Shown here piece by piece: positions 4,588 through 35,117 of a DNA stretch of 38,629 nucleotides. The notes under the pieces are model-generated. The model did not search any database, was not told where the DNA came from, and saw only the letters and a list, made by a program, of their open reading frames with translations. How positions within the stretch are numbered: position 1 is the first letter of the stretch; each line of letters opens with the position of its first letter. Origin of the DNA: a virus; the IMG/VR virus record IMGVR_UViG_3300027861_000006, positions 1-38,629 of that record; one strand, given 5' to 3'. Both the position numbers and the translations under genes were made by a program.

Positions 4588-4794
4588 TTAAATAAACCTA
4601 ACAAGCCCAGCTTCAGGCGTTTCAATGCTACCGTCTTCAAGCTCAACTATCGCAGTTGTATAATTAGCAACTCCATTTTCAGCTTCAAAGGTGTCATAAA
4701 AAGTACCCCACTGGTGGAATATTCCCGTATTTACAACTTTCTTTGTTTTTGAATAGTTATCGTATATTTCTACTTTTCTGAGTTTGGTATTCAT
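4588..4794 (-). CDS. Hypothetical protein (68 aa)
   Basis: Co-oriented ORF whose start overlaps the upstream stop (4791-4794). Confidence 0.5.
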   Translation of the reverse strand: MNTKLRKVEIYDNYSKTKKVVNTGIFHQWGTFYDTFEAENGVANYTTAIVELEDGSIETPEAGLVRFI

Positions 4795-5042
4795 TTTTTT
4801 TCTCCTTCTTGAATTGAACCACTAACCTTCCTAACAAATTTATCAGACCAGTACTCATTACCGCTTTTAGCTAGAACATACCATTGATTGCCAATTTGCC
4901 TCCATACTTTAGCATCAACTACAATTTCCTTATAGCTCATTTCGTATTTTACTGTAACTATAACCTTTTCTGTTGTTGTAGTGTCAAAGTTTGCTGCAAA
5001 ACATATTGCAGATAGTGTTAATATTATGATGATTATTTTCAT
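4791..5042 (-). CDS. Small predicted secreted protein (83 aa)
   Basis: Sec-like N-terminus MKIIIIILTLSAICFA/ANFD. Confidence 0.5.
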   Translation of the reverse strand: MKIIIIILTLSAICFAANFDTTTTEKVIVTVKYEMSYKEIVVDAKVWRQIGNQWYVLAKSGNEYWSDKFVRKVSGSIQEGEKK

Positions 5043-17414: not shown

Positions 17415-17470
17415 ACCAACCCAAATACACCACAGCACACCCAAGCCTATCCTAAACATCTCTAAACCCC

Positions 17471-17660: not shown

Positions 17661-17665
17661 AGTGC

Positions 17666-17705: not shown

Positions 17706-17739
17706 CACTGCATACAAATACCTATATGTCTATTAAGAA

Positions 17740-17748
17740 TGTGGATAA
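17740..17748 (+). promoter_or_regulatory. Perfect DnaA-box 9-mer (TGTGGATAA = complement of TTATCCACA)
   Basis: Exact match. Two one-mismatch copies in the same orientation lie at 17967-17975 (TGTTGATAA) and 17988-17996 (TGTGGATAC). Confidence 0.35.
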
Positions 17749-17806
17749 CTCCCAAAAATAGCGTCTGGATCAATTTAAGCACAAAAAGCGCTGGGAGGCA
17801 TTTAAT

Positions 17807-17923
17807 GTGAAAAAAGGCGTTATTGTGACAGTGGTTGGGTTTTTACTATGTTTTAGGCCATTATGCATGTCGCATAGTAACTATTATGTAAACTTTATTG
17901 CATTAATTGAAGATTTTAGTTGA
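17807..17923 (+). CDS. Possible 38-aa hydrophobic peptide inside the island
   Basis: GTG start 8 nt after GGGAGG. Translates as MKKGVIVTVVGFLLCFRPLCMSHSNYYVNFIALIEDFS. No other support. Confidence 0.2.
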   Translation: MKKGVIVTVVGFLLCFRPLCMSHSNYYVNFIALIEDFS

Positions 17924-17995
17924 TTTCTTGATGTTTTTGTATTAATTTAATTAATATAAATAAAATGTTGATAACTTGTTGGTATGTTGTGGATA

Positions 17996-18010
17996 CCCCC
18001 CCCCACCCCC
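17996..18010 (+). repeat. C9-A-C5 homopolymer tract (G-tracts on the minus strand), with a second CCCCAACCCC at 18051-18060
   Basis: Read directly. Stands out in an AT-rich genome. Confidence 0.9.
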
Positions 18011-18074
18011 AAAATTGAGGATGGAGGCTTAGGAAAAGTTTTGGACTAGTCCCCAACCCCGTAAGTATGAAAAC

Positions 18075-18350
18075 ATGAACATATGCAAAAAGGAGTATGG
18101 CATAGTGAAAAAAGAAAACACAAAAACTTTTAAAGACTTAATGTCTGAGTGTGAAAAGGCTCCTGAACCTCTTTATGTTTCGTATGAAGCGTTTCATGAT
18201 GATAAAACTTTTGAAGTGCGGGTGTATTTTATTTGTGGTGTTTACATAGCAATGTCGAATCACGAGGGTGGTGATTGTTGGGAAGATGAAGGTGCGTATT
18301 CATTTTTAGATTTCGATCTTTTTAAAAAAGATTTTGGGATAAAGGATTAA
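18075..18350 (+). CDS. Hypothetical protein; start may be GTG 18105 (9 nt after AAGGAG)
   Basis: First ORF after the island. Confidence 0.5.
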   Translation: MNICKKEYGIVKKENTKTFKDLMSECEKAPEPLYVSYEAFHDDKTFEVRVYFICGVYIAMSNHEGGDCWEDEGAYSFLDFDLFKKDFGIKD

Positions 18351-18588: not shown

Positions 18589-18735
18589 ATGTTGATTATG
18601 CCAAATGAAGTTAGAAGTGGTAGGACTGGCGAGAATACAGAGGCTTTTAGAAATTCTCATGATCGGATATTTGGGAAAAAGGACGATTCAAAGAAAACTT
18701 TGAAAAATAAAGAGGAGAAGAGAGATGTTGAATAA
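18589..18735 (+). CDS. Possible 48-aa basic peptide (not in the ORF track)
   Basis: ATG after GGAGGG. Its stop overlaps the next gene's start. Confidence 0.35.
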   Translation: MLIMPNEVRSGRTGENTEAFRNSHDRIFGKKDDSKKTLKNKEEKRDVE

Positions 18736-19282
18736 GTTTATTGTTTTTTTAGTGTTAATTATAGCGCTTGGGTTTGCGGGTGAAAATTACAATGGGTATT
18801 TAGATACTGTATTGGTGTCTGACACATTAGGGGCTGGAGATGCGTTTTATTCTGCAGCTATGAATTTGAGTGAAGATGAAGACATACGGCTATTGGTAAA
18901 AGCGAATGATACGAGTGAGGCGGGATTAACAGACGATAGTATTGCTATTTATTATGGGTATCAGACAGGTAAGGAGACGCTTGGGAGTGATGGTGAAGCC
19001 TATAATGCTTGGGATGGCGAGATGATTATAGATACGATGCTTGCAAGTGAGTTTGGTGCTGTTGGTAGTGGAACTATAGAGGCTTCGGGTACGCTTACAA
19101 GAACTTGGGGCGGTGCTGATACAACTAACGTTTCTGGTTTTGCTTATCAAAGTAGGTGGTTTGTACCTGAATGGGATCATAGGATAAGATTTTTTGTAAA
19201 AGGTTTGGCTGCAAATAAAAAAGGTTCTGCTTTACATCTTGTGTTAGAGGTGGGTAGACGTTTAGATATTCCAACGAAATAG
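18725..19282 (+). CDS. Predicted secreted protein (185 aa) just upstream of the portal gene
   Basis: Sec-like N-terminus MLNKFIVFLVLIIALGFA/GEN. RBS GAGGAGAAG. Confidence 0.6.
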   Translation: MLNKFIVFLVLIIALGFAGENYNGYLDTVLVSDTLGAGDAFYSAAMNLSEDEDIRLLVKANDTSEAGLTDDSIAIYYGYQTGKETLGSDGEAYNAWDGEMIIDTMLASEFGAVGSGTIEASGTLTRTWGGADTTNVSGFAYQSRWFVPEWDHRIRFFVKGLAANKKGSALHLVLEVGRRLDIPTK

Positions 19283-19290
19283 GTTGAATA

Positions 19291-21138
19291 ATGTCATTTG
19301 ATATTACTGAAGATAATTTTAAGAAGCATGAAAAGGAGCTTACGGCTCTTTTGGCTGATCAACTTAACAGCTATTATAAGTCTAGTTGCTATAAGCGTCT
19401 CGAGGGGCGTTATTTTCGTTTAAAAGACTCTGTGGATATGAATTTTCATGGTAATGCTAATCGGAGTCGAAGTGTAAGTCGAACTAGAAATGCCTCTAAG
19501 AGTAGGATGAACTTTGCGTTAGTGAAACAACGGACTATTTTAAGAAGAGCGATTTTATCGCAGAATTCCCGGGGTGAACCTTTAGCGACAACTGAGCCTA
19601 TTGGTGCTACCACTATGGAAGCTGCAAACAACATTCAAGATGTTGTAAATATGAATTTAAAAAGTACTGAGTTTCGTGCAAAGGCTTTTTTAGCTATTAA
19701 AGACGACACTTCTGTGTTTGGTGCATCTGTGGCTTATACGTCATGGAGAGAGAGTTCAAAACAGGCTAAGAAGACAGTTGCGTCAAAGATAGGCCCTAGA
19801 AGAGAGCTTGTAAGGACCACTAAAAAGAATGCTGTTAATCATGCCATTAATGTTCTTGATTATTTTCAAGATCCAAAAGTTTCTGATCCTGACGATTCAG
19901 ATTATCAAGGTCACATAGAGAGAATTAACCTATCCAAACTTGTTGCTGCTGTAAAAATGAACCCTGAGGCTTATATTACTGCTAATGTTGAGCAGATAAT
20001 TGAAAGAGCTAAAAAGGAATCGATACAAGATAAGAATTACCATGATAAAACTGTGGACAGTTCTATTTCGAGTAAAAGGTTTGAGATAGATAGACAGATT
20101 TTTTATTCTACTTGCAATATTAAGGGAAATGAGGACAATAGTAATTTTTATTATGTTGAAATGATTGCAGGAAAAATTGTTCGCTTTCAAGAAAACCCTC
20201 ACGACAACGATATTCGACCTTATGCGGTATTTACTTTTTATCCACGAAGAGAAGTGTGGTGGGGTAATTCTGACGCTGAATTCGTACTACCTCACGAAAA
20301 ATATACTAACCTGATAATGGGTATGAAAGCTGATAAAGCACTTCAATCTCTTCAGAGCTACTTGTTTTATGAAAAAGGTACTATTGACGTAGCTGATTGG
20401 AATAATCGACATAAGAATGGTGGTTTTGTTGGAGTTAATACAGGCGGCAATCAAAATCTTTCTCAGTTATTGTACCAAGTGCAGCCACAAGATCAATCCT
20501 TAAACACTACTGACTCGATTATGAGAGAAGTTAAGGAGAATGAACAGAAACTTACTCCAAGACCTGACCTATCAAGGGCTGCTAAAAGCGGAGGTCTACA
20601 AAACACTACTGCTACTGCTGCAAATATCCTTGATGAACAGGGTGATGTTGTAGAATCAGAGATATTAGAGAACTTTACTTTCGGATTAAAACGATTAATT
20701 AGAAATAATGTGATTATTCTTCAACAGAGACTTTCAGACGAGTTTGCTATTAGGCCAAAACCTAACGAAGCACAAAGAAAATTGATGAAAGAGGAAATAT
20801 TAGGCGATGTTGATTACCATATTGAGACAAGTTTAAATAAAAACAAAGCTACTGAGCTGTTAAGGCTACAAAACCTAATTACAATGTTTATGAACTTCAA
20901 GGGTAGTGGTGATCCAGCATTAGCACAACTTGATTTAACAGGTATTTTCAAAAAATTACTAAAACAGGCTGATATTGGGGATGTAGACGAGTTATTTCCC
21001 ACTCAGCCACAACAAGAGTTGCCGGGCGCAGTGCCAAGTGACCCACAAGCTCCACAGGGGGCCGATTTAGGGCAGGCAGGCGCAGTACAGGAACTCACAC
21101 CACCCCAAACACAGGAAGGGGCTTTAAATGAGGCTTAG
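19291..21138 (+). CDS. Portal protein (candidate)
   Basis: 615 aa, first large virion gene. Followed by scaffold-like and capsid genes as in T7-type order. P/Q-rich disordered C-tail. Family not verified. Confidence 0.6.
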   Translation: MSFDITEDNFKKHEKELTALLADQLNSYYKSSCYKRLEGRYFRLKDSVDMNFHGNANRSRSVSRTRNASKSRMNFALVKQRTILRRAILSQNSRGEPLATTEPIGATTMEAANNIQDVVNMNLKSTEFRAKAFLAIKDDTSVFGASVAYTSWRESSKQAKKTVASKIGPRRELVRTTKKNAVNHAINVLDYFQDPKVSDPDDSDYQGHIERINLSKLVAAVKMNPEAYITANVEQIIERAKKESIQDKNYHDKTVDSSISSKRFEIDRQIFYSTCNIKGNEDNSNFYYVEMIAGKIVRFQENPHDNDIRPYAVFTFYPRREVWWGNSDAEFVLPHEKYTNLIMGMKADKALQSLQSYLFYEKGTIDVADWNNRHKNGGFVGVNTGGNQNLSQLLYQVQPQDQSLNTTDSIMREVKENEQKLTPRPDLSRAAKSGGLQNTTATAANILDEQGDVVESEILENFTFGLKRLIRNNVIILQQRLSDEFAIRPKPNEAQRKLMKEEILGDVDYHIETSLNKNKATELLRLQNLITMFMNFKGSGDPALAQLDLTGIFKKLLKQADIGDVDELFPTQPQQELPGAVPSDPQAPQGADLGQAGAVQELTPPQTQEGALNEA

Positions 21139-21571
21139 AGACTTCATATACCAACTAATTTCGTTCGGCGGCTATTCAAGAAAGCTTTATCGAGAATTGC
21201 ATGATTCTTTTAACAAAGATATTGCTAATACAAGAGAGGTCGTTGCACAGGCAAAGGCTGCTGAAGATAATTATAACAAGAAGCCTACTAGATTTTCGGT
21301 TATCGAGGCGTTTGACGCTAATAGCCCTGAATTTCAAAAGCAGATCCTTGAGCTTTCAAAGAGTGCTACCTTTAGATGGTTAGTTTTTTCTACTGAGCAA
21401 GATGTCTACGACATGATGAACAATGCTACAGGTGAAAAAGCTGTTGAGATTATGGGAATGTCAAAAGGATTACGTTATTTCAGGACTGTAATTGATGGTA
21501 TTTGTAAGAGCCGACAAGAATTTGCGGCAAAAGCTGAATTCCAAAACAATAGCGGGGCTGAAATTGACTAA
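21128..21571 (+). CDS. Hypothetical virion-module protein (147 aa)
   Basis: Overlaps the portal stop. Confidence 0.5.
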   Translation: MRLRDFIYQLISFGGYSRKLYRELHDSFNKDIANTREVVAQAKAAEDNYNKKPTRFSVIEAFDANSPEFQKQILELSKSATFRWLVFSTEQDVYDMMNNATGEKAVEIMGMSKGLRYFRTVIDGICKSRQEFAAKAEFQNNSGAEID

Positions 21572-21917
21572 GAAGTACAGTTACCACGATTATAAGCTTC
21601 CTAGCAAAAAGCCGTTGCCTGAGGATATAAATCAGATAGCTACAGATATTGCTACTAGGCTAGACACTACAGGAAAACTATTAAAACTTATGACTTACCC
21701 TGAAAGCAATAAAGCTTTTGGCAATATCAATTATATAAACCCTGCTACTATGAGACTTGAGGCTACATTTGAGTATCATAGCGGTATGGTGAAGCTTATC
21801 AAGCTTGTTAAGTACATAGACGATACAGCTTCTCACTTTATGCAGACGATTAAGAATAATAAAATTGAATTTAGAACTGAGGCTCAAATTAATAAGTCTC
21901 GAAATGCAAATAAATAA
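21492..21917 (+). CDS. Hypothetical virion-module protein; start uncertain (ATG 21495 or TTG near 21563)
   Basis: ORF overlaps the upstream gene by up to 80 nt. Confidence 0.45.
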   Translation: MMVFVRADKNLRQKLNSKTIAGLKLTKKYSYHDYKLPSKKPLPEDINQIATDIATRLDTTGKLLKLMTYPESNKAFGNINYINPATMRLEATFEYHSGMVKLIKLVKYIDDTASHFMQTIKNNKIEFRTEAQINKSRNANK

Positions 21918-21937
21918 CTCTTACAGGAGAAAATGAT

Positions 21938-23005
21938 ATGGCAGATGAAATAGAATCAGGAGAAGTGGACCAAGAACAGCAGGCCCAAAGCTTTTTTGTT
22001 GACCAAGATACTGGTGAACGTGTTGACTCTACGCCTAGTGCTGAAGAAGCACAAGAAAAGCCTTTAGAAGCGGAGGCTGCCAAAGAGCCTGACGCTAAAG
22101 AAGCACCAACGGATACAACCGAAAAAGAAAACGTAGAAGACCCTTTTAATTTCATGGATACGGCAGAAGATGGTTCTAAATCATTTAATGCTCTTTCTGC
22201 TATGGAGTTTTTAGAAGGGGCAGGACAGAAGCAACCAACTTATGGCGAGGCTTCTCCAAGGGCGGCAGAGGCGGCGCAAAACGCTGACCCTCTAAATCCA
22301 CAAGGAGCGGCGCAAGAGCCTGAAAGGAGTCTGGTAGAGCTTGCAAGGGATAACGTAATGAGTTTCCCTAATTACATGCAAGGTTACATAGACCAAGGGT
22401 ACAGCATCGATCAGGCATACCAGTATGCTAAACAGGCTGTGGAAAACGATTTGACTTCCTTTGAAACTACTAACCGTTATGAAGAGATGGAAAAGCGGTT
22501 AGAAGAAAAGTTCAGTGGAAAGCAGACCGAAAGAACCCATCAAGAGGAAATGGCGGCATTAACTCCTGTATCTACAAGAAATCTACACGAGGTCGCAAAG
22601 GCTTCGGGATTAGGATCTGTGGAGAAATTACAAAGTGCTTTAGTGAACCCCGAATATGGTGGTAGAGCGATTCAACACTTTTTTCAACAAAGTATTGGAG
22701 ATACTAAATTTGAGTCAACCGAAGCGGAACAGCAAGCTATGAACGATTGGTTTGTTAAGTTTACTGCGGATAGAAACAATTTAGAGCTCTTGGCAGACAT
22801 AACAACTGCTCGAATATTTAAGGCAAACTTGCCAAAACTTACAGAAGCTATCAGGGCGGGTAAAGTCGGCCTTGATAATGAAAATAAGCGAGGTAACGGT
22901 ATGGGTAATATTTCGACACAGGGTAAAACTAGAAATAACCCTGCTACACAAAAGACAAACGAACTTGCAAATTTCTTGCATGTAAATAGTCTTGATGAAG
23001 TGTAG
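21938..23005 (+). CDS. Scaffolding protein (candidate)
   Basis: Acidic, helical, low-complexity 355-aa protein between the portal and capsid genes. Confidence 0.5.
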   Translation: MADEIESGEVDQEQQAQSFFVDQDTGERVDSTPSAEEAQEKPLEAEAAKEPDAKEAPTDTTEKENVEDPFNFMDTAEDGSKSFNALSAMEFLEGAGQKQPTYGEASPRAAEAAQNADPLNPQGAAQEPERSLVELARDNVMSFPNYMQGYIDQGYSIDQAYQYAKQAVENDLTSFETTNRYEEMEKRLEEKFSGKQTERTHQEEMAALTPVSTRNLHEVAKASGLGSVEKLQSALVNPEYGGRAIQHFFQQSIGDTKFESTEAEQQAMNDWFVKFTADRNNLELLADITTARIFKANLPKLTEAIRAGKVGLDNENKRGNGMGNISTQGKTRNNPATQKTNELANFLHVNSLDEV

Positions 23006-23030
23006 CAATAATTTATAAGGAGGCCATGTT

Positions 23031-24227
23031 ATGGCAACTCAACAGACACCTTTTGTACCTCAAGACCCTTCGGCTACAGGGTTACAGGGAAGAACAGTAA
23101 ATGATGAAATTAGAAACCTTATTCCCGGCAACTCACCGCTATTAGAGCTTGTTGCAGTTGGTGTTGCGCAAGACGGTAAAGTGAAAAAATCAGCGGGAAT
23201 GATTAGTAAACAGGCTACAGATACAGTAAGATTTGAAGCTTTCACACATACACCACCTGGCTATCTTCAGACTGTTGCAACTAAAACAAGTGCTCTTGTT
23301 TATACGTTTGCAAGTGTTGCTGAAATTTATGTTAGAATGGTATTTGAAAATACTGCTAACAAAACCGTTGGTGTAGTTTCAGCTATTTCAAGTACAAGTG
23401 TTACTTTTACCTCTATTGGTTCAACTGCCTTTTCTGCTGTTGCAGGTGACGTTTTAATGCGTCTTGGTAACGCTTATGAAGCCAATTCAAGCGATCCTGC
23501 TTACTTGCAGAAAGACGATGATAACATTTACAATATGTGTCAGACTTTCCGTTTTCCAACAGCAGCTTCAAATTCACAGATTGCTACAAAACAGGTTGCA
23601 GGTGGAGATTTCTTTCAGAGAGCTTCTAAGTATGCAATGATTGAAGGTATGCGTGATATTGAAAGAGCGTTTCTTTTTGGTAAAAAATCTTCAAGTGGTA
23701 ATACTACTGAGATTAGTGATATTAGTAAAAACGTAGCGACTACTGAAGGTCTATGGAATCAGTCAGGTGTTGTATTTGATGCAGGTGGAAACATGACTCC
23801 GTCAAAGCTCTTTAAGGATATTCCAAACAAAATGGACTCTTCTGTAGGCGATATGGACCGTGTTATTATGCTGACTTCTAAGAAACAGCGTACTAACCTT
23901 CTTGAACAGCAGCAGGACAGTATTCGTATTGACCAAAAATCTGATCCTAAAGAATATGGTGTTAAAATCCCAATGTTTATGACAGGTGGACCAAACATTG
24001 AAATTCGTTCGCATGATGCGTTTAACAATGCAGGACACGAAGACGAAGGACTTATTTTCCTTCCTGAGCGTCTTAAATATCGTTACCTTAAAGGTAGAGA
24101 TATTGCACCAAACAAAGATATTCAGTCTAATTCTACTGATGGTAAAATTGACGAAATCTTTGGTGAAGTTGGATTGCAGAATGACGATGGTGGTGTGTCA
24201 ATAATGAGACTTATTAACATGTCTTAA
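23031..24227 (+). CDS. Major capsid protein (candidate)
   Basis: 398 aa. ATG lies 7 nt after AAGGAGG. Directly follows the scaffold-like gene and is followed by the clearest intrinsic terminator in the window. Confidence 0.7.
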   Translation: MATQQTPFVPQDPSATGLQGRTVNDEIRNLIPGNSPLLELVAVGVAQDGKVKKSAGMISKQATDTVRFEAFTHTPPGYLQTVATKTSALVYTFASVAEIYVRMVFENTANKTVGVVSAISSTSVTFTSIGSTAFSAVAGDVLMRLGNAYEANSSDPAYLQKDDDNIYNMCQTFRFPTAASNSQIATKQVAGGDFFQRASKYAMIEGMRDIERAFLFGKKSSSGNTTEISDISKNVATTEGLWNQSGVVFDAGGNMTPSKLFKDIPNKMDSSVGDMDRVIMLTSKKQRTNLLEQQQDSIRIDQKSDPKEYGVKIPMFMTGGPNIEIRSHDAFNNAGHEDEGLIFLPERLKYRYLKGRDIAPNKDIQSNSTDGKIDEIFGEVGLQNDDGGVSIMRLINMS

Positions 24228-24233
24228 TTAATA

Positions 24234-24262
24234 GCCCTCTTGAAATATAGGGGGCTTCTTTT
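24234..24262 (+). terminator. Intrinsic terminator after the capsid gene
   Basis: GCCCTCT-tgaaatat-AGGGGGC (one mismatch) followed by TTCTTTT. Confidence 0.65.
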
Positions 24263-24285
24263 AAATTTCTAAATGGAGAAATGAA

Positions 24286-24786
24286 ATGAAATCAATAAAA
24301 ATCTTTTTGGTAATGGCTGTTTTCGCTTCTATTGCTTTTGCAGACGCACTTGCAGATATAAGTGTAAGTGCAGTTCCTGAATTTGACAGAAATAACAACG
24401 ATGTTGTTTCGGCTGATGCGTTGTATGATACGCTTTCGGGTGCTGACACTTCAATCATGTTCACAGACTTTGTTCCAACAAGAGGTTGGGAATACATTTT
24501 AGTAAGAGACGCTATTACTGGTACAGGAGCCGATTCCGCTTATTATTACCTGCAGGTTGACTGCAAGGATGCTAAGAGGGGTAACGTGCTTTACACGGCT
24601 AATATCGATACTATAGACGGTGCTGCAGGGGTTGCTAATATTATACCTTTTGGCAATACTCTAATTGGTACAGCGTTTGATATTCGACTTGTTGGTATTT
24701 CGGGTAGTACAGGTTTTCAGGCGATTGTGAATAGAGCAATGCTTTATCGCAGACGACCAAGAACAATCTTTAAAGCGTGGAATTAA
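24286..24786 (+). CDS. Predicted secreted protein (166 aa) inside the virion module
   Basis: Sec-like N-terminus MKSIKIFLVMAVFASIAFA/DALAD. Basic C-terminus. Confidence 0.6.
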   Translation: MKSIKIFLVMAVFASIAFADALADISVSAVPEFDRNNNDVVSADALYDTLSGADTSIMFTDFVPTRGWEYILVRDAITGTGADSAYYYLQVDCKDAKRGNVLYTANIDTIDGAAGVANIIPFGNTLIGTAFDIRLVGISGSTGFQAIVNRAMLYRRRPRTIFKAWN

Positions 24787-24840
24787 TTAATAGGAGGGTG
24801 TAAAAGCCCTCTTTAACATAACCTTTAAAAAGGAAAAAAA

Positions 24841-25398
24841 ATGTCAAAAGAAAAAAAAGAGATCAAGTATGTTGTGGCTGCAAAAAGCTTTAGCATTATT
24901 GTTCAGATTAAAGACGAAAAAGGTAAAAAGGTAAAGGATGTTGATTCTGAAACAGGTGTTCAGAAACGTGTTAATCGCACTCCTCAATTCCATGAAGACC
25001 TTGTGGACATGAAAAATGTTATCGATAGTGTTAAAAAAGGTTATCTCTGTGAATACAATGTTACAGAAGAAACACCTAATTACATCGCAGACGCTTTTAA
25101 AAAGTGTGCGGAAAATCGTTCTCATCCAGTTATAACTTATGATACTTGGATCAAAGAGAATAATCCTGAACGTCATGCAGAGATGGTTAGAGCAGATCAG
25201 GCCGAAAAAGCTGCTGCTGAAGCTTACGAAAAAGGTAAAGCTGAAGGTCAGACAGGCGATATCAAAAAGCTTACTTCTGAAAAGAATACTGCTGAAATAG
25301 CTGTTGAAAATCTTACAAATGAAGTTGCTGAAAAAGACGAAACTATTGCAGACCTTCAGAAAAAGGTTGCTGAAATCGAAAAGAATGCAGGTAAATAA
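24841..25398 (+). CDS. Hypothetical virion-module protein with a coiled-coil C-terminus
   Basis: 185-aa ORF. ATG after AGGAAAAAAA. Confidence 0.55.
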   Translation: MSKEKKEIKYVVAAKSFSIIVQIKDEKGKKVKDVDSETGVQKRVNRTPQFHEDLVDMKNVIDSVKKGYLCEYNVTEETPNYIADAFKKCAENRSHPVITYDTWIKENNPERHAEMVRADQAEKAAAEAYEKGKAEGQTGDIKKLTSEKNTAEIAVENLTNEVAEKDETIADLQKKVAEIEKNAGK

Positions 25399-26111
25399 TG
25401 CCTAACAATCAACCTTTATACAGTGAGATTAAAGCTCGTTTAGAGGATTGGCTACAGAGTTCGGGGGGCAGTGTTGTACTGCTGCCCCTTGACCTTTTAA
25501 ATAGGGCGCAAGACGATTTGACGCTACATAAGCAATGGTCTAATATGATGTTTACAGAGGCTTTAACACCTGTTGAAGGAGAGCCTAGAACCTATTCTAT
25601 GCCTGACGGTATGGCTTCTTATCAAATTATCTCTTCAGACCATGACGGAGATGGAAAGCCTGACGAATACTTTTACGACAGGTCTAACCAAGTTAAGGGC
25701 TATAAAGTTGAAGATAGATTTGATATTACTACAGGCCATGCACACGTAATTCTTTTTTATAGAGACCCAAGTGTGCTACCTAATGTTTATTATCAAAAAG
25801 CTTTAACTGACTTTCAGGATACAGACACTCCTCAATACTCGTTCTTTCCAAGTGAACTACTTTTAAGAACTGCTCAAAAGATTCATATTGAAGAAACGGG
25901 GCTTACAAGCTCCGAGGTGACTGTTATTTTAAATAGCCAAAAAACTTTGTTAAAAAATTATACTGCTATTCATCATAACGTGAATACAGATCTGAAAATG
26001 GAAATACTAGACTACGAAGGGCATCCAATACAGACAGAAGCTATTAACCTGACAGGTTGCTTTGATGGCGACCCTGATTATTACAAAGGGCAGGATAACA
26101 GTGTCTTATAG
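25398..26111 (+). CDS. Head-tail adaptor / tail tubular protein A position (candidate)
   Basis: Assigned only by position, directly upstream of the gp12-like gene. Confidence 0.35.
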   Translation: MPNNQPLYSEIKARLEDWLQSSGGSVVLLPLDLLNRAQDDLTLHKQWSNMMFTEALTPVEGEPRTYSMPDGMASYQIISSDHDGDGKPDEYFYDRSNQVKGYKVEDRFDITTGHAHVILFYRDPSVLPNVYYQKALTDFQDTDTPQYSFFPSELLLRTAQKIHIEETGLTSSEVTVILNSQKTLLKNYTAIHHNVNTDLKMEILDYEGHPIQTEAINLTGCFDGDPDYYKGQDNSVL

Positions 26112-27993
26112 CAGAAAGAAAAAGGCCGTAAGGTTTTCTAATTTTTCCAAGGGGCTAAATACCTCTAAAGACTCCACTGTTATTGGAAATCAGCAGGTGC
26201 AAGAGAGTAAAAACGCTATACTACGTGAAAACGGCGCAGACAGGCGACCCGGTACAATTGCTAAAGAGAATTTCAATTTAACAGACCTTATAAAAGGTTT
26301 GCATAATTATTTAGACTTTGTTAATATCGAGCACTTACTCATGGGATCGGGTGGTAAATTATACGATGTAGCAAAGGCAGATGGTGCTCCTACGTTAAGA
26401 TATGATTTGGGCGGTACTGATAACTTTTATTTTGCCGATGCTTTGGGCCGATGCTTTATCGTAAACGGAAACGAAGTTGTTAAAGATGAAGGTGGTACAA
26501 CTTATCAAGTTGGTATAGATGCCCCCACAGGAGCAAGCGCAGGCGTAATTGCGGGCGGTTCGCTAGCAGAGGGTACTTATGGTGTTTATGCAGGCTACGG
26601 ACGAGAAGAGGGCGGCGTAATCGTTCTTTATTCAACAGGTCAATATTTGGGTACAGTAAATTTAACCGCTGGAAATCAAACCGTTCAAGTCACTAATTTT
26701 GCCCAAAGCAGTGACCCACAAGTTGACAAACGTGTTATTTGGATGACTGACGCTGATTTATCTACGGTTTACCGCTACTATACAGCCGATAATGATGCTA
26801 CAGCAACGCACAATGTTACAAGTGATGCCGACAAGTCCGAATCTATTTTATATAGTGTTGACGCTGTTGATAACATTTCAGTTCCAGACTTTGAGCACAT
26901 ACTGGCAGCGGACAACAGGCTTTGGGGTAGTGTTGATAACGTTCTTTATTACAGCTTAATGAATAGCGCTAACCCATATGATTTAGAAAGATTTTTTACC
27001 TTAAATCGAATTACTCTTAAGTATAAGATTACAGGATTATTTGAAGTTCAAGGCAATGTTTACATGAATACGCCGTATGGGATATTTATGCAATCAAACG
27101 CCGATGTTACTGCTAGAACTATCCACGTTGAAAAACGGTGGTATTTTAAGTATATGAATACCGTTGTTGATTATAACGGTGGAAAATTGGGACTAACTAA
27201 TGATGGTGTTAAGTTTTTCGATGGTGAAAAGTTTCTTGATTATGACATATCTGAAGATGTGAAAGCGGAAATTACTAAGATGTATAGTACCGTTTCGGGA
27301 TTCGAGCCTTTTGCTGTTATTATAAGAAGAGATATACGCACAGAATACCATATAAGTTATAATGACAACTCTTTCACAGCAGCTACAAATAATAAAAGAA
27401 TTGTCCTTAATCTTGACAAATTAGCCTATTTACCTGAAAAGCAGGTTACAGCGCCGTGGGAAATATGGGATAATGGCGCAACCCATATGACAACAGATCT
27501 TTCTGGAATTACTTATCAAGCACAGTCGCACGCTACAGCACCTAAGCTTTACGTTGAAAACCCTAATACTACCATAGACAATGGTATCTATCTGCAAAGT
27601 GGAGCTGTTGGTACAGAGGCGAGTTATATAGAGTTGTTGGTTTGCACTAAAACAATTCTACTAGATATGTCGTCACGGTTAGCATGGAATTTATTGCGGG
27701 TTATGGCGAGGCTTTCGGCTAAAGCTACTATTGAGATACATATAAGAGATGTTGAGGGCGAAAACTCTAGTGATTTAGTAGGGGCGGGTGACGAGGTCTC
27801 TTTATGGGATGTCTTTCTTTGGGATGTTGGAACATGGGCAAGTACAACGCCACGATTAATTAAAACTAGATTGCCAGCAAGTTTAAAAGGATATATGATG
27901 TTTGTTAAGTTTTATCAAACTGCAAATGATCCTGAATTTAATATACAAGATATTGTAGTAGAGGGTACAGCCTCTCAGATACGTTTTACATAG
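26062..27993 (+). CDS. Tail tubular protein B / nozzle (T7 gp12-like); likely start GTG 26101
   Basis: N-terminus NFSKGLNTSKD-...-GADRRRPG matches recalled T7 gp12 NLKGGISQQPD-...-GLQKRPP. The spacing between G[IL] and RP is the same (29 aa). Confidence 0.55.
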   Translation: MMATLIITKGRITVSYSRKKKAVRFSNFSKGLNTSKDSTVIGNQQVQESKNAILRENGADRRPGTIAKENFNLTDLIKGLHNYLDFVNIEHLLMGSGGKLYDVAKADGAPTLRYDLGGTDNFYFADALGRCFIVNGNEVVKDEGGTTYQVGIDAPTGASAGVIAGGSLAEGTYGVYAGYGREEGGVIVLYSTGQYLGTVNLTAGNQTVQVTNFAQSSDPQVDKRVIWMTDADLSTVYRYYTADNDATATHNVTSDADKSESILYSVDAVDNISVPDFEHILAADNRLWGSVDNVLYYSLMNSANPYDLERFFTLNRITLKYKITGLFEVQGNVYMNTPYGIFMQSNADVTARTIHVEKRWYFKYMNTVVDYNGGKLGLTNDGVKFFDGEKFLDYDISEDVKAEITKMYSTVSGFEPFAVIIRRDIRTEYHISYNDNSFTAATNNKRIVLNLDKLAYLPEKQVTAPWEIWDNGATHMTTDLSGITYQAQSHATAPKLYVENPNTTIDNGIYLQSGAVGTEASYIELLVCTKTILLDMSSRLAWNLLRVMARLSAKATIEIHIRDVEGENSSDLVGAGDEVSLWDVFLWDVGTWASTTPRLIKTRLPASLKGYMMFVKFYQTANDPEFNIQDIVVEGTASQIRFT

Positions 27994-28003
27994 GAGTAAG
28001 GAA

Positions 28004-29533
28004 ATGAATTTTATCAAAACAATGTACTTAGTGGCTATGGCGTTTTACGCTATTTATGCGTTAGACGATATGACTATACCTAACCCGTTTTCTCCAAATA
28101 CCCCTGCAAGATCTGCTGAGGTTAATGAGAATAATGATAGTACGAAGATTGCATTTAATAGGCTAAATGATACTCTTGCAAATGATTTTACAAGAAATAT
28201 TTATTTTGAAAGTGGCGATACTACCATCAAAACCATTTATGTAGACACCGTAGTTGCTCTTGTTTGCTCAGTTAATGTTCGTGGTTACATGGCAGACCTT
28301 ACAGCGGGTACGGTTAATATTGATGGTGGAACTATCGATGGTGTTACCATAGGAGGCTCTACAGAGGGCGCAGGTTACTTTGACACGCTTCACTCAGTAA
28401 AAGGCATTACTGGGACAGCTTTAAATACAGGACAGGGCTTAAACGAGCTTTACCCTATGGACCAAGCAGTTTTAACGACTTCAGATGTAACTTTCGATTC
28501 TGCTTATGCTGGAAAGGTAGTGACTCCATCGGCTGTTATTACGACCTTAAACGCGAACGGTGGAACAATTGATAATACAATAATTGGCGGTTCGGGAACT
28601 GCTGCAATAAGTGGAACAACAGGAAGTTTTTCGGGAGCATTAACAGGAACAACACTTAATACAGGTCAAGGTGCAAACGAGCTTTATGATATGAACCAAA
28701 ATGTATTAACTACAAGTGATGTTACATTTAACAATGGTACTTTTAATGATAAAGTCTTAATAGACACGCTTTCAAGCAATAGTGTGATAAATCTTTTAAA
28801 AGTAAAAAATAATTATACAGCAGGGTCAGGAACAGGTGATGATGCAGGTTGCTCTATAGAAATGTACAATGGGATTGCAGAAGCAACTGAACCAGCTAGA
28901 CGAGGCGTAATAGAATATTATTCCAAAGGCTTTTTTGATAATCCCGATAATACTTTTTTGCATCTTAATAATTACAAAGGTAGTAAAGATGAAGGACTAA
29001 CTATCACTTATAAAGCAGTAGGGATAGGCACAAGTACCCCAAATGCTTTATTGACAATAGATAGTTCCTTTACGACAAAAGAAGTCTCAGCATTCTCAAC
29101 CCCCTCAAGTGGCTACGGTAAGTGGTACGCAAAAACAGACGGATTACCTTATTTCAAGAATGACGCGGGGACTGAGTATGGATTAGCAGCAGGTTCGGAA
29201 GGTAGTTTTACTGGAACGCTAACAGGGTGCACAACAAGCCCAACCGTAACCGTTTATTATGTTGTTTCAGGAGATTTGGTTACAATGACTATTGGCGATA
29301 TAACAGGGACTAGTAACACCTCAGCCATGTCAATTACAGGAATGCCGTCTGGTATTTGGCCTAATAGCGATCAAGCAATTTCAGTATCAATATTTAATGG
29401 TGGCAGCTTACAATCTGATGCTAGAGTGTGCTTAGTTAAAACAACAGGTGTTATTGAAGTACAAGGGACTATTACAGCGAGTAGTACAAAGGGTTTTAAG
29501 TCTAGCTCCTCTGCTTACAGGACTAACAATTAA
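28004..29533 (+). CDS. Tail fibre protein with a signal/anchor-like N-terminus
   Basis: GGTIDGVTIGGS / GGTIDNTIIGGSG fibre repeats. Duplicated block LNTGQG.NELY.M.Q.VLTTSDVTF. ATG after AGGAG. N-terminus MNFIKTMYLVAMAFYAIYA/LDD. Confidence 0.65.
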   Translation: MNFIKTMYLVAMAFYAIYALDDMTIPNPFSPNTPARSAEVNENNDSTKIAFNRLNDTLANDFTRNIYFESGDTTIKTIYVDTVVALVCSVNVRGYMADLTAGTVNIDGGTIDGVTIGGSTEGAGYFDTLHSVKGITGTALNTGQGLNELYPMDQAVLTTSDVTFDSAYAGKVVTPSAVITTLNANGGTIDNTIIGGSGTAAISGTTGSFSGALTGTTLNTGQGANELYDMNQNVLTTSDVTFNNGTFNDKVLIDTLSSNSVINLLKVKNNYTAGSGTGDDAGCSIEMYNGIAEATEPARRGVIEYYSKGFFDNPDNTFLHLNNYKGSKDEGLTITYKAVGIGTSTPNALLTIDSSFTTKEVSAFSTPSSGYGKWYAKTDGLPYFKNDAGTEYGLAAGSEGSFTGTLTGCTTSPTVTVYYVVSGDLVTMTIGDITGTSNTSAMSITGMPSGIWPNSDQAISVSIFNGGSLQSDARVCLVKTTGVIEVQGTITASSTKGFKSSSSAYRTNN

Positions 29534-29534
29534 T

Positions 29535-29831
29535 ATGAAAAAAACAATAATAAATCTAACCCCTTCTCAAAACTCCCTTCAAGGCCAATTCTCGAATGGA
29601 GATGATCCTTTAGTAATGTGTGACGCAACTAATGGAGATTTCTCTATTACAATGCCTGATGCACCGTCTACAGACGATTCAACTTTTAGATTCGTTAAAA
29701 AAGACGACTCATTAAATACTGTAACTCTTGTTGCAAAATCTGGTCAAAAAATTATGAATGAAGATTCTCAAATACTAACAGAAGAAGCAGATGAGCTTGT
29801 TTTAAACTCAGATGGAATTGGTTGGTGGTAG
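29535..29831 (+). CDS. Small fibre-associated protein (98 aa)
   Basis: The ATG begins 2 nt after the fibre stop codon. The upstream extension to 29448 overlaps the fibre gene and is not needed. Confidence 0.5.
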   Translation: MKKTIINLTPSQNSLQGQFSNGDDPLVMCDATNGDFSITMPDAPSTDDSTFRFVKKDDSLNTVTLVAKSGQKIMNEDSQILTEEADELVLNSDGIGWW

Positions 29832-29832
29832 T

Positions 29833-30792
29833 ATGAATAAGTTACTTTTCATCTTATCAGTAATCCTTACTTGTTCTCAAACGCCTTTATATGCAACTAA
29901 ATACGGTAGTGTAAAGCTTTGGGACGGTGACACTATTGTAAATGTTAGCGATAGCGCTTTGAAAGTTTATACTGACGATACATTGAATGTTGCCATAGCG
30001 GACACTATTGTTGTTAGAGTTACCGATACGCTCGAAGTTAATTCAATTCCTAAAGACTACTATTTAGAAGTTGCCAAGGGTAATGTTGCAGGCGCATCTA
30101 AGGTGAATAAGTTTGGGCATAATCCTACCGCTACCAGTGGCGATGATATTTGGGGCGGGGGTGGTGTTTACGTTTTTTTTCCTGACACTGCAAGAACGAT
30201 GGAAATACTTAGCACTTCGGCGCTTGACGATGAAGGAAGCACAGGGGCTATTCAGGTAAGGGTAAAAGGACTTGATTCTAACTGGCTTGAAATAGAGGAA
30301 ACCGTAACTATGAACGGCACTACTCCTGTATCTTTGACAAATAAGTTCGTTCGAATGTACAGGGCTTTTGTTCTTGAAGTAGGATCGGCAGAAACCAACG
30401 AAGGGGATATTACCGTTGAAATTGTTGGAACGGATACGGCTGCTATTTTTATAAGTGCCGATGAAGGCCAAACGCAACACGCTATCTACACCGTTCCTGA
30501 AGATAAGACCGCTTACTTTTTAAAGGGGTATGTGTCATTGACTAATAGTAATAAAAATGGTGAAGATGGAACATTCCAATATTACGTTAGATTAAACAAT
30601 GGATATCAGAGTGCTTGGCTTGTTAAAGGCGAGGTGGGCTTAGTTAATATTGGTTCAAGTTACTGGCAATATGAATATGCCGTTCCAGCAGGGCCTATAC
30701 CCGGCAAATCAGACATTAAGATTCGACTTACAGACGCAAGTGCGACAATGAACACACAGGCAGGGTTTGATCTCATTTTAATAGATAATTAA
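29833..30792 (+). CDS. Lipoprotein-like beta-rich protein (receptor-binding/structural candidate)
   Basis: N-terminus MNKLLFILSVILT/CSQ (lipobox-like). ATG 29833. Confidence 0.55.
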   Translation: MNKLLFILSVILTCSQTPLYATKYGSVKLWDGDTIVNVSDSALKVYTDDTLNVAIADTIVVRVTDTLEVNSIPKDYYLEVAKGNVAGASKVNKFGHNPTATSGDDIWGGGGVYVFFPDTARTMEILSTSALDDEGSTGAIQVRVKGLDSNWLEIEETVTMNGTTPVSLTNKFVRMYRAFVLEVGSAETNEGDITVEIVGTDTAAIFISADEGQTQHAIYTVPEDKTAYFLKGYVSLTNSNKNGEDGTFQYYVRLNNGYQSAWLVKGEVGLVNIGSSYWQYEYAVPAGPIPGKSDIKIRLTDASATMNTQAGFDLILIDN

Positions 30793-35115: not shown

Positions 35116-35117
35116 CA

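What the first reader, a model, noticed from the sequence alone, without database searches (positions are those of the whole stretch)
18725..30792. Sec-signal-bearing proteins interleaved with virion morphogenesis genes
Six ORFs start with textbook signal peptides: n-region, hydrophobic core and an AxA-like cleavage site. They are:
- 594-1970 (VFS/A)
- 4791-5042 (CFA/A)
- 18725-19282 (GFA/G)
- 24286-24786 (AFA/D)
- 28004-29533 (IYA/L)
- 29833-30792 (ILT/C, lipobox-like)

Four of the six lie inside the late structural block, and they include the tail-fibre-like and a receptor-binding-like protein. Tailed-phage virions assemble in the cytoplasm, so exported structural proteins are not expected. 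Possible explanations:
- envelope-targeted accessory proteins (superinfection exclusion, receptor masking or modification)
- uncleaved N-terminal anchors
- an unusual assembly or attachment pathway
Basis: partly seen in the sequence, partly recalled or inferred. Interest (0 to 1): 0.65.

Follow-up and report, generated by a model that had tools for sequence, protein, structure and literature searches.

The report
Exported, probably glycosylated phage tail proteins
In a family of uncultured short-tailed phages, the tail fibre and several neighbouring late proteins carry genuine secretion signals and are packed with a bacterial sugar-attachment motif, which suggests that outer parts of the virus particle mature outside the cytoplasm, contrary to how tailed phages are thought to be built.

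Summary
The window is a complete ~38.5-kb genome of an uncultured SU10-like podovirus, and all six ORFs start with Sec-type leaders.

For the four late-block genes the leaders are a conserved clade trait, not chance. They recur at the same positions in relatives whose capsid proteins are only 29-34% identical (38-56% GC). In the post-capsid family, 144 of 149 representatives carry one.

The "lipobox" on ORF 29833 is not supported. Its orthologues share an SPase I junction, A|TKYG.

A new finding: the mature parts of the leader-bearing proteins are 3.4-5-fold enriched in D-(S/T)-(A/I/L/V/M/T), the sequon of the Bacteroidota periplasmic O-glycosylation system. Leaderless proteins of the same phages (ratio 1.00), decoy motifs and control phages are not enriched. 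Residue preferences match published glycoproteomes.

Most likely the fibre and its partners are exported, cleaved and glycosylated. I infer, without proof, that they join cytoplasmically built particles at lysis. The main rival is exported proteins that never enter the virion.

The host is unknown. Heavy Shine-Dalgarno use and the absence of the Bacteroidetes "Q-rule" conflict with a classical Bacteroidia host.

ORFs 594-1970 and 4791-5042 are phage-specific accessory exported proteins.

The parts
18725..19282 (+). Pre-portal exported protein, 185 aa. Leader MLNKFIVFLVLIIALGFA | GENYNG. The mature part is all-beta with 5 D-S/T-hydrophobic sequons.
   Evidence: Strong SD upstream. All 8 database homologues, plus the L004, L008 and L012 counterparts, carry divergent leaders ending before a conserved (E)NYNG. 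Sequons: 5 observed, 0.8 expected. No Pfam, PHROG, PDB or deposited-phage match.
24286..24786 (+). Post-capsid exported protein, 166 aa. Leader MKSIKIFLVMAVFASIAFA | DALAD. It occupies the position of SU10 gp10, a putative decoration protein.
   Evidence: The family has 218 representatives at 50% identity, and 144 of 149 carry leaders with the junction AxA|AAPT. A member sits directly after the MCP in every related locus that extends past the MCP gene, 9 in all. Sequon enrichment is 5.1-fold with four conserved sequon columns.
28004..29533 (+). Tail fibre, 509 aa. Weak leader MNFIKTMYLVAMAFYAIYA | LDDMTIPNPFSPNT. Conserved N-terminal anchor module, two NTGQGxNELYxMDQNV repeats, variable C-terminus.
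   Evidence: Lies directly after the nozzle gene, with a 4-nt overlap in relatives. 243 homologues, some with Peptidase_S74 or pectate-lyase domains. N-terminal 60 aa are 39% identical on average against 25% for the C-terminal 150 aa. Leaderless homologues start at its predicted cleavage site. Sequons: 7 observed, 3.1 expected; 11-21 in relatives.
29535..29831 (+). Small fibre-associated protein, 98 aa, leaderless here. The L008 orthologue is 560 aa with a leader added precisely at its N-terminus.
   Evidence: Orthologues in L004, L006, L008, L016 and L017. L008 N-terminus: MKKLFLILVVVAAAFG|GIREVSLTPQD.
29833..30792 (+). Exported tail-module protein, 319 aa. Leader MNKLLFILSVILTCSQTPLYA | TKYGSVKLWDG, a sequon-rich extension of about 40 aa, then a phrog_8198 domain.
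   Evidence: phrog_8198, E = 9e-44. Leaderless homologues in cyanophages are annotated as virion or tail-fibre proteins. Conserved A|TKYG junction in L016 and L017. Sequons: 7 observed, 1.7 expected.
594..1970 (+). Accessory exported protein, 458 aa. Leader MRLLLTLLILASSVFS | ATDY. Function unknown, no sequons. Lies downstream of a TM plus coiled-coil ORF (263-592).
   Evidence: Strong SD (GAGGAGG) upstream. No family or homologue found. Sequons: 0 observed, 2.1 expected.
4791..5042 (-). Small early-strand exported protein, 83 aa. Leader MKIIIIILTLSAICFA | ANFDTTTT.
   Evidence: No homologues in the related loci.
19291..21138 (+). Portal protein, leaderless (context).
   Evidence: PF23899 SU10_portal, E = 3.7e-21; phrog_1216.
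23031..24227 (+). Major capsid protein, leaderless (context).
   Evidence: PF17236 SU10_MCP, E = 1e-17.
24233..24256 (+). Terminator-like hairpin between the MCP gene and the post-capsid gene.
   Evidence: 8-bp stem with 5 G-C pairs, followed by a T-rich tail.
25398..26111 (+). Adaptor protein, leaderless (context).
   Evidence: PF24175 SU10_adaptor, E = 8e-06, just below the curated cut-off. The relatives' orthologues hit the same family.
26065..27993 (+). Nozzle-position protein, about 640 aa, leaderless (context).
   Evidence: Conserved at 34-39% identity in all relatives, directly before the fibre. The function is assigned by position only.

Best explanation
The four late-block proteins (pre-portal 185 aa, post-capsid 166 aa, fibre 509 aa, TKYG protein 319 aa) are made with genuine Sec signal peptides, translocated across the inner membrane and cut by signal peptidase I. 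In the periplasm they are most likely O-glycosylated by the host at numerous D-(S/T)-hydrophobic sequons.

The particle core (portal, capsid, adaptor, nozzle, ejection proteins) has no leaders and assembles and packages DNA in the cytoplasm as usual.

I infer that the exported proteins are the peripheral parts of the virion: the receptor-binding fibre, its accessory proteins and decoration-like proteins. On this view they dock onto finished particles only when holin lesions and lysis mix cytoplasm with periplasm, giving a particle with host-type glycans on its outward-facing parts.

How firm each step is:
- Shown by sequence: leader architecture and its conservation; the sequon enrichment and its restriction to leader-bearing proteins.
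- Inferred: actual cleavage, actual glycosylation, incorporation into the virion, and the timing of docking.
For: Export:
- Leaders are conserved in architecture but not in sequence across relatives with 29-34% MCP identity and 38-56% GC.
- 144 of 149 post-capsid representatives carry one. Mean length is 19.1 aa, the n-region is at least +1 in 99%, acidic residues are 0.2% in leaders against 10% in mature parts, -1 is A in 75% and -3 is A or V in 68%.
- Conserved mature residues begin before any alternative start codon.

Glycosylation:
- D[ST][AILVMT] is 131 observed against 38.9 expected in leader-bearing proteins, and 76 against 76.2 in leaderless proteins of the same phages.
- In the post-capsid family it is 595 against 117, with eight decoy motifs at 0.66-1.06.
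- Within the fibre family, leader-bearing members are at 1.52 and leaderless members at 0.90.
- At one conserved fibre position, D-S/T-L occurs in 10 of 12 leader-bearing members and D/N/T-A-I/L/V in the leaderless ones.
- The third-residue order L>I>V>T>A>S, S over T in two of the three families, and Asp as the only enriched first residue all match the published motif (PMC12871550).
- L021 replicates the pattern. Control phages sit at 0.69-1.13.

Virion role:
- Fixed synteny inside the morphogenesis operon, with no promoter/terminator pair bracketing the genes.
- The fibre has a conserved N-terminal module and a variable C-terminus. No other hypervariable receptor-binding candidate exists in the module.
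- Leaderless fibres of other phages begin exactly where its mature part begins.
- Homologues of the 319-aa protein's domain are annotated as virion or tail-fibre proteins in cyanophages.
- From established knowledge: tailspikes and fibres of P22 and T4 attach to finished particles in vitro, and lambda-type holins make micron-scale membrane holes.
Against: - There are no virion proteomics and no cultured member.
- No structural similarity to known virion proteins could be shown. The AlphaFold models are poor (pLDDT 57 and 38) and the fold matches are non-significant.
- The two small families have no detectable relation to SU10 gp10.
- The sequons sit largely at conserved columns, so a structural role for them cannot be excluded.
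- Orthologues are not independent, which inflates the z-scores.
- The host signals conflict with classical Bacteroidia, the only group known to use this sequon. 85% of genes have SD motifs, whereas the Bacteroides phage B40-8 has almost none. Gln at +1 is 2.8%, against more than 48% in over 99% of Bacteroidetes (PMC5837995).
- Docking of exported proteins at lysis has no known precedent in tailed phages.
Confidence: 0.45

Rival explanations
1. The proteins are exported, and probably glycosylated, but never enter the virion. They act in the infected cell's envelope. Possible roles are masking or destroying the receptor from inside to block superinfection and stop progeny being trapped on debris, helping egress, or remodelling the envelope. 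In that case the particle recognises the host with its nozzle and needle only.
For: Export evidence is the same as for the main explanation. Phage-encoded exported proteins among tail genes are well known: T5 Llp, lambda Lom and Bor, and Cor (from memory). P. gingivalis prophages encode Sec-signal proteins that were read as envelope modifiers (PMC10367356). SU10's own post-capsid protein gp10 was not seen in the virion map (PMC9509320). One fibre relative has a weak depolymerase-type C-terminal domain.
Against: These are syntenic core genes conserved across a deep clade, not variable morons. They are not autonomous transcription units. The fibre has the anchor-plus-variable-tip design of a virion receptor-binding protein, it is the only such gene in the module, and it is homologous to leaderless fibres. 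Soluble periplasmic proteins cannot reach the outer face of surface receptors.
Confidence: 0.3
2. The proteins are exported, but the D-(S/T)-hydrophobic enrichment is a structural feature of these beta-rich extracytoplasmic folds (for example Asx/ST turns before strands, or metal sites) and not a glycosylation sequon. The host need not be related to Bacteroidota. This concerns one step only and is compatible with either a virion or a non-virion role.
For: In the post-capsid family most sequons sit at four conserved columns. The host signals (SD use, no Q-rule) do not fit classical Bacteroidia. No glycan evidence exists.
Against: The enrichment recurs in at least four families with no detectable sequence similarity to one another (hhalign for one pair; no cross-family matches). 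It tracks leader presence within a single fibre family. It is absent from fibres of control phages. It reproduces the published first-, second- and third-position preferences, and D[ST][non-AILVMT] is not enriched (PMC12871550).
Confidence: 0.25
3. The hydrophobic N-termini are not cleaved and the proteins stay with cytoplasmically assembled virions. The segment acts as a membrane-interacting or oligomerisation element.
For: Podovirus internal proteins do carry hydrophobic N-termini despite cytoplasmic assembly. An example here is the gp14-like ORF 33457-33891.
Against: The leaders have a positive n-region, a short core and an AxA site, unlike the 22-aa Gly/Ala-rich uncharged segment of the gp14-like protein. 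Their sequence drifts freely while the n-h-c architecture is kept. Sequon enrichment only makes sense outside the cytoplasm. Leaderless homologues lack the segment entirely.
Confidence: 0.07
4. Chance or annotation artefact: AT-rich sequence and mis-chosen start codons give signal-like N-termini.
For: The heuristic flags 19% of spurious antisense ORFs in this window. A public gene caller chose downstream starts for two of the ORFs.
Against: The same leaders occur in relatives with 50-56% GC and in 144 of 149 family representatives. The SD motifs precede the upstream starts. Conserved residues lie between the leader and the next possible start codon.
Confidence: 0.02

Closest known systems
Virion module of Escherichia phage SU10 (Kuravirus), PMC9509320
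   Same: Same portal, major capsid and adaptor families. Similar order: terminase, portal, scaffold, capsid, small post-capsid gene, adaptor, fibres and nozzle, needle, ejection proteins.
   Different: SU10's fibres and its post-capsid Ig-like gp10 have no leaders and no sequon enrichment (ratio 1.10). No sequence relation exists between gp10 and the 166-aa family. The clade's MCP matches cultured phages at only 23-26% identity.
Substrates of the general protein O-glycosylation system of Bacteroidota (PMC12871550)
   Same: Noncytoplasmic proteins carrying D-(S/T)-(L/I/V/T/A/S/M). The motif is enriched over chance only in exported proteins. Position-specific preferences are the same.
   Different: These are phage proteins in a virion gene module. 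The host is unknown and uses Shine-Dalgarno initiation, and the leaders do not follow the Bacteroidetes Q-rule. Glycan attachment has not been shown.
Exported phage proteins encoded among tail genes: T5 Llp, lambda Lom and Bor, Cor of T1/phi80 (from memory)
   Same: Signal-peptide or lipoprotein genes located in or next to the tail and receptor-binding genes of tailed phages.
   Different: Those are small accessory outer-membrane proteins, patchily distributed and often separately transcribed, and none is homologous to a fibre. Here the exported set includes the fibre itself and core syntenic genes.
Sec-signal proteins of Porphyromonas gingivalis prophages (PMC10367356)
   Same: Phage genes with SPase I signal peptides adapted to the host's export pathway.
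   Different: Those follow the Q-rule, are of unknown function and were read as host-envelope modifiers. No fibres and no sequon analysis were reported.
Coat proteins g8p and g3p of filamentous phages (from memory)
   Same: Virion proteins made with cleaved Sec leaders and matured outside the cytoplasm. g3p is the receptor-binding protein.
   Different: Filamentous phages assemble by extrusion at the membrane and have no capsid or packaging motor. Here the core is a conventional HK97-type head and tail.
Glycosylated virions of some mycobacteriophages (from memory)
   Same: Glycans on outward-facing virion proteins.
   Different: In those phages the glycosylation is cytoplasmic, done by phage-encoded glycosyltransferases, with no export step.

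Membership tests
Sec / signal peptidase I (type I) signal peptide | Positively charged n-region | tested here: met
   Net charge is at least +1 in 99% of 145 post-capsid leaders. All six window ORFs have K or R in the first 5 residues.
Sec / signal peptidase I (type I) signal peptide | Uncharged hydrophobic core of about 7-15 residues, shorter than a membrane anchor | tested here: met
   The h+c region is 15.8 +/- 2.5 aa. Acidic residues make up 0.2% of leaders. The window fibre's core is weak because it is Tyr-rich.
Sec / signal peptidase I (type I) signal peptide | Small neutral residues at -3 and -1 (AxA rule) | tested here: met
   -1 is A in 75%, with S or G in the rest. -3 is A or V in 68%. 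Conserved junctions: A|AAPT, A|xENYNG, A|LDDxT(I/V)P and A|TKYG.
Sec / signal peptidase I (type I) signal peptide | Actual translocation and cleavage | not testable with these tools
   Needs PhoA fusions or N-terminal proteomics. SignalP was not available.
Bacterial lipoprotein (SPase II) signal, proposed for ORF 29833-30792 | Lipobox [LVI][ASTVI][GAS]C, conserved in orthologues | tested here: not met
   The window has ILT-C and L016 has LIT-C, both with Thr at -1. L017 has a different Cys arrangement. All three share A|TKYG downstream. The lipobox rule is quoted from memory.
Substrate of Bacteroidota general O-glycosylation | Noncytoplasmic location | tested here: met
   Inferred from the leaders.
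Substrate of Bacteroidota general O-glycosylation | D-(S/T)-(A/I/L/V/M/T) motif, enriched over chance, with Asp obligatory | tested here: met
   Ratios of 3.4-5.1 in leader-bearing proteins against 1.00 in leaderless ones. E[ST]x and other decoys are not enriched. Third-position order is L>I>V>T>A>S.
Substrate of Bacteroidota general O-glycosylation | Host belongs to Bacteroidota | tested here: inconclusive
   Host unknown. SD use in 85% of genes and Gln at +1 in only 2.8% argue against classical Bacteroidia. Chlorobi-type values would fit.
Substrate of Bacteroidota general O-glycosylation | Glycan attached to the Ser/Thr | not testable with these tools
   Needs glycoproteomics.
Moron / superinfection-exclusion gene (Llp, Lom, Bor, Cor type) | Patchy presence among related phages; autonomous promoter and terminator | tested here: not met
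   The four late genes are syntenic in all relatives examined. No bracketing promoter/terminator pair was found. For 594-1970 and 4791-5042 the patchy-presence feature is met, since the relatives have no homologues.
SU10-like (Kuravirus-type) podovirus | SU10-type portal, major capsid and adaptor proteins | tested here: met
   PF23899 at 3.7e-21 and PF17236 at 1e-17. PF24175 at 8e-06, 0.2 bits under its cut-off. The relatives hit the same families.
Phage tail fibre | Conserved N-terminal attachment module, variable C-terminal part, location next to the tail hub genes | tested here: met
   Presence in the particle was not testable.
T9SS cargo, Tat substrate, or type IV pilin-like signal | C-terminal T9SS domain; twin-arginine motif; G|F-T-L-I-E prepilin site | tested here: not met
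   No T9SS C-terminal domain in the Pfam scans. Reading the sequences shows no S/T-R-R-x-F-L-K motif and no prepilin motif.

The most novel reading that the evidence does not exclude
Tailed-phage morphogenesis here has a periplasmic branch. The receptor-binding fibre, its accessory proteins and decoration-like proteins are Sec-exported, cut by signal peptidase I and coated with host O-glycans. They dock onto DNA-filled particles built in the cytoplasm only during lysis, so the released virion wears host-type glycans on its outer parts.
Probability: 0.4. Interest if true: 0.9.

Novelty: new variant of a known kind. Interest (0 to 1): 0.75.

Why it matters
Tailed-phage virions are taken to assemble entirely in the cytoplasm. 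A deep clade whose only fibre, plus two or three other core late proteins, carries a conserved export signal and a dense glycosylation sequon challenges that view.

- If these proteins are virion parts, this is a two-compartment assembly route. It would also be a way for a phage to borrow the host's periplasmic glycosylation machinery, with consequences for particle stability, receptor recognition and immune or lectin recognition.
- If they are not virion parts, the clade spends several conserved, highly expressed late genes on periplasmic glycoproteins of unknown purpose, which is also new.

In practice, sequon enrichment restricted to leader-bearing phage proteins is a sequence-only marker. 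It supports real export, and it points to hosts with Bacteroidota-type glycosylation for uncultured phages. The post-capsid family (218 or more representative clusters) is large and completely unannotated.

Tried and rejected
- **Nucleotide and capsid searches.** Searches of deposited phages and IMG/VR found no close relative.
- **Host assignment.** The genome-collection scan returned one distant contig from a Clostridia MAG. There are no tRNAs. DnaB is about 37% identical to helicases from all kinds of hosts. NCBI and metagenome contigs carry no organism information.
- **Structure.** Sequence search of the PDB was negative. AlphaFold models had pLDDT of 57 and 38. Foldseek gave only generic jelly-roll resemblances at TM below 0.4, so I drew no structural conclusion.
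- **Relatedness of the small families.** No profile relation was found between the two small families, or between the post-capsid family and SU10 gp10.
- **Spanin pair as proof of a diderm host.** ORF 263-592 looks like an i-spanin, but no lipoprotein partner was found. This is inconclusive.
- **N-glycosylation sequon D/E-x-N-x-S/T.** Not enriched.
- **General trait of Bacteroidota phages?** Bacteroides phage B40-8 has no leaders on its structural proteins.
- **Literature.** No report was found of Sec leaders or O-glycosylation sequons on tailed-phage fibres.
- **Gene-free region 17213-18104.** No Rfam match; only AT-rich inverted repeats.

Full report
**What the window is.** The 38,629-base window ends in an 82-bp exact terminal direct repeat, so it is a complete phage genome of about 38.5 kb. 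Its rightward late block encodes an SU10-type portal (PF23899, E = 3.7e-21), major capsid protein (PF17236, E = 1e-17) and adaptor (PF24175, just under its cut-off). These are followed by a nozzle-sized protein of about 640 aa, a fibre, a 700-aa protein and three ejection-type proteins: one with a weak T7 gp14 match and one with an ART-PolyVal domain. No deposited phage or IMG/VR contig is close to it. The same phage occurs on one ENA metagenome contig.

**The observation.** I had no SignalP, so I wrote a transparent n/h/c heuristic. It finds 9 of 10 classic leaders and five of the six ORFs, missing only the fibre, whose core is Tyr-rich.

The heuristic is lenient in AT-rich sequence. It also flags 14 of 72 spurious antisense ORFs and 3.2% of real proteins with shuffled N-termini. 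The window on its own therefore gives only moderate evidence: 5 of 25 late genes flagged against about 0.8 expected.

**Conservation settles it for the four late genes.** Related loci were recovered through the fibre's homologues and a capsid-protein alignment. Their MCPs are only 29-34% identical to the window's and their GC ranges from 38% to 56%, yet the gene order is the same. That order is terminase, a leader-bearing protein of about 190 aa, portal, scaffold, MCP, a leader-bearing protein of about 160 aa, a protein of about 170 aa, adaptor, nozzle, a leader-bearing fibre, a small protein, a protein of about 700 aa, and the ejection proteins.

- All eight database homologues of the 185-aa protein have leaders. 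The leaders differ freely in sequence and end just before a conserved (E)NYNG.
- A profile search with the 166-aa protein found 218 representative clusters at 50% identity. Of the best 149, 140 carry a leader by the heuristic, or 144 after correcting over-extended starts.
- Across 145 of these leaders, length is 19.1 +/- 2.9 aa. The n-region is at least +1 in 99%, and acidic residues are 0.2% against 10% in the mature part. Position -1 is Ala in 75%, -3 is Ala or Val in 68%, and a conserved A-A-P-T/S follows the cut.
- The twelve fibre homologues that share the window's N-terminal motif all have leaders.
- Structural modules of four control phages (SU10, Microcystis Mel-JY34, Caulobacter Kuura and an uncultured podovirus) gave 4 flags in 93 proteins. 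Three are probably lysis or membrane proteins and one is a weak false positive.

The "ILT/C lipobox" of ORF 29833 is not supported. Thr at -1 breaks the lipobox rule, and the orthologues in L016 and L017 converge on an SPase I junction, LYA|TKYG and CFA|TKYG. The C-terminal 250 aa of this protein belong to phrog_8198 (E = 9e-44). Cyanophage members of that family are annotated as virion or tail-fibre proteins and have no leader. The leader here therefore sits on an added N-terminal extension.

ORFs 594-1970 and 4791-5042 have no homologues in the relatives or in deposited phages. They are best treated as phage-specific accessory exported proteins.

**An unexpected second signal.** The most conserved columns of the post-capsid family include four D-(S/T)-hydrophobic triplets. 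I therefore tested D[ST][AILVMT], the sequon of the general periplasmic O-glycosylation system of Bacteroidota. According to a 2025 review, it is the only sequence-specific bacterial O-glycosylation motif known. It acts only on noncytoplasmic proteins, and it is enriched over chance mainly in that phylum (PMC12871550).

| Set tested | Observed | Expected | Ratio |
|---|---|---|---|
| Leader-bearing late proteins, six clade genomes | 131 | 38.9 | 3.4 |
| Leaderless proteins, same genomes | 76 | 76.2 | 1.00 |
| Post-capsid family, 145 members | 595 | 117 | 5.1 |
| Fibre-family hits, leader-bearing (49) | 267 | 175.1 | 1.52 |
| Fibre-family hits, leaderless (62) | 193 | 215.0 | 0.90 |
| Four control phages | – | – | 0.69-1.13 |

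Expected values come from shuffling each protein. Further points:

- Every member of the post-capsid family has at least two sequons. Eight decoy motifs, including D[ST][non-AILVMT] and E[ST][AILVMT], lie at 0.66-1.06.
- At one conserved fibre position, 10 of 12 leader-bearing members read N-x-N-F-D-S/T-L. The leaderless members read D/N/T-A-I/L/V at the same place.
- The third-position order is L>I>V>T>A>S. Ser is slightly preferred over Thr in the post-capsid and fibre families, while the small pre-portal set prefers Thr. Asp is the only enriched first residue, at 3.3-5.4-fold. These match the published preferences.
- A further relative, L021, replicates the pattern: its fibre has 19 sequons against 3.2 expected, and its nine leaderless proteins have 4 against about 10.
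- The enriched families show no detectable sequence similarity to one another. hhalign aligns the pre-portal and post-capsid families only at their leaders, and the homologue searches gave no cross-family hits.

Two caveats apply. Orthologues are not independent, so the z-scores are inflated. Many sequons also sit at conserved columns, so a structural role cannot be excluded.

**What this means for export.** The sequon signal is independent of the leader analysis. It makes sense only if the leader-bearing proteins really leave the cytoplasm. Together the two lines make export very likely (my estimate is about 0.85) and glycosylation likely (about 0.6).

**Virion part or not?** This cannot be decided from sequence alone.

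For a virion role:
- The genes are core, syntenic members of the morphogenesis operon. They are not flanked by their own promoter and terminator; the only clear hairpin follows the MCP gene.
- The fibre follows the nozzle gene with a 4-nt overlap in relatives.
- Its mature N-terminal 60 aa are conserved (39% mean identity), while its C-terminal 150 aa are at the alignment baseline (25%). This is the usual design of a virion-anchored receptor-binding protein.
- No other hypervariable candidate exists in the module.
- Leaderless fibres of other phages begin exactly where the predicted mature fibre begins. One of them sits in the same post-nozzle position in a distant SU10-like contig.
- The leaderless/leader-bearing split follows particle geometry. 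The DNA-containing core is leaderless and the peripheral proteins carry leaders.
- One family changes state: the 98-aa protein after the fibre is leaderless here but carries a leader in L008.
- From established knowledge, fibres and tailspikes of T4 and P22 attach to finished particles in vitro, and canonical holins open micron-scale holes. Docking during lysis is therefore physically plausible.

Against a virion role:
- There is no proteomic evidence and no cultured member.
- The structure models are unusable.
- SU10's own post-capsid protein was not seen in its virion (PMC9509320).
- The nearest precedent reads phage Sec-signal proteins as envelope modifiers (PMC10367356).

**The host.** It remains unknown, and the signals conflict. 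The sequon points to Bacteroidota. However, 85% of the window's genes have Shine-Dalgarno motifs against a 14% background, and the relatives use them too. A genuine Bacteroides phage, B40-8, has almost none and has no leaders on its structural proteins. Gln follows the cleavage site in only 2.8% of the post-capsid family. By contrast, more than 99% of classical Bacteroidetes exceed 48%, Ignavibacterium album reaches 77%, and most Chlorobi are below 9% (PMC5837995). A basal lineage of Bacteroidota in the GTDB sense, or an unrecognised lineage with the same glycosylation specificity, would reconcile these signals. That is a guess.

**Verdict.** It is a clade-wide trait, and it is coupled to a glycosylation-sequon signature. 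I found no report of either feature for tailed-phage fibres in five literature searches.

I favour export, cleavage and glycosylation of peripheral virion proteins that join the particle at lysis (0.45). The next most likely reading is exported non-virion envelope proteins (0.30). Uncleaved anchors (0.07) and artefact (0.02) are unlikely.

Noticed in passing
window 1-82 and 38548-38629: An exact 82-bp terminal direct repeat. The window is therefore a complete genome, either circularly assembled or with a short terminal repeat.
   Followed up: partly
window 32912-33457 (+): A 181-aa sulfotransferase-domain protein (PF13469, PF00685) sits inside the tail and ejection gene block. It is absent from that position in relatives L004 and L006. 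It may modify a glycan or a protein.
   Followed up: no
window 35103-37853 (+): The largest ejection-type protein (916 aa) carries an ART-PolyVal ADP-ribosyltransferase domain (E = 2.6e-11), suggesting an enzyme injected with the DNA.
   Followed up: no
window 37853-38254 (+), the next ORF running to the window end, and 263-592 (+): The probable lysis region contains a YkuD (L,D-transpeptidase fold) protein of 133 aa, then a Cys/His-containing ORF of about 125 aa, then a 109-aa protein with an N-terminal TM segment and coiled coil (i-spanin-like). No lipoprotein o-spanin partner was found.
   Followed up: partly
window 2616-4241 (+) versus 18725: The large terminase (33% identical to the PF04466-positive terminase of L004) is separated from the portal by the whole leftward early region. 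In relatives L004 and L008 it directly precedes the pre-portal leader gene.
   Followed up: partly
window 14589-15146 (-): An early-strand pentapeptide-repeat protein (PF00805, E = 2e-39). It may be a DNA mimic or an anti-defence function.
   Followed up: no
window 17213-18104: An 892-bp gene-free stretch just upstream of the late block, with AT-rich inverted repeats (17484-17570). It has no Rfam match. It may be an origin or a regulatory region.
   Followed up: partly
window 28004-29533 (two copies in the fibre); proteins P0010, P0016, P0028, P0035, P0046-48, P0088: The fibre repeat NTGQGxNELYxMDQNVxTTSxVxF is shared by more than 200 metagenomic proteins. Some of these start with a long signal-anchor-like segment (MSQTKRAYDKFLLYALLIIALGVVGFISA) and carry pectate-lyase/beta-helix domains. 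Their origin, phage or cellular, is unknown.
   Followed up: no
L020 10001-11098 (protein P0234) and its neighbours: The post-capsid domain also occurs as the C-terminus of a 365-aa leader-bearing protein with Ig/fn3-like parts. This lies in the tail region of an unrelated siphovirus-like contig (62% GC), next to a glycosyltransferase. In that contig a leaderless lysozyme has 4 sequons against 0.3 expected.
   Followed up: partly
L018 (Bacteroides phage B40-8) 15801-16406: The membrane-anchored 201-aa protein next to the endolysin has 5 D-S/T-x sequons against 0.9 expected. Periplasmic domains of lysis proteins of a genuine Bacteroides phage may therefore also be glycosylation targets.
   Followed up: no
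L006 92-763 and L012 8279-8725: A further leader-bearing family (mature start ...KVNSR..P) occurs in the head-gene region of two relatives but not in the window. The L012 copy is sequon-rich (4 observed, 0.9 expected).
   Followed up: partly
L006 12232-13152: A Kelch/beta-propeller protein of 306 aa lies in the tail module of relative L006, in the position of the window's 319-aa TKYG protein. This slot appears to be exchangeable.
   Followed up: no
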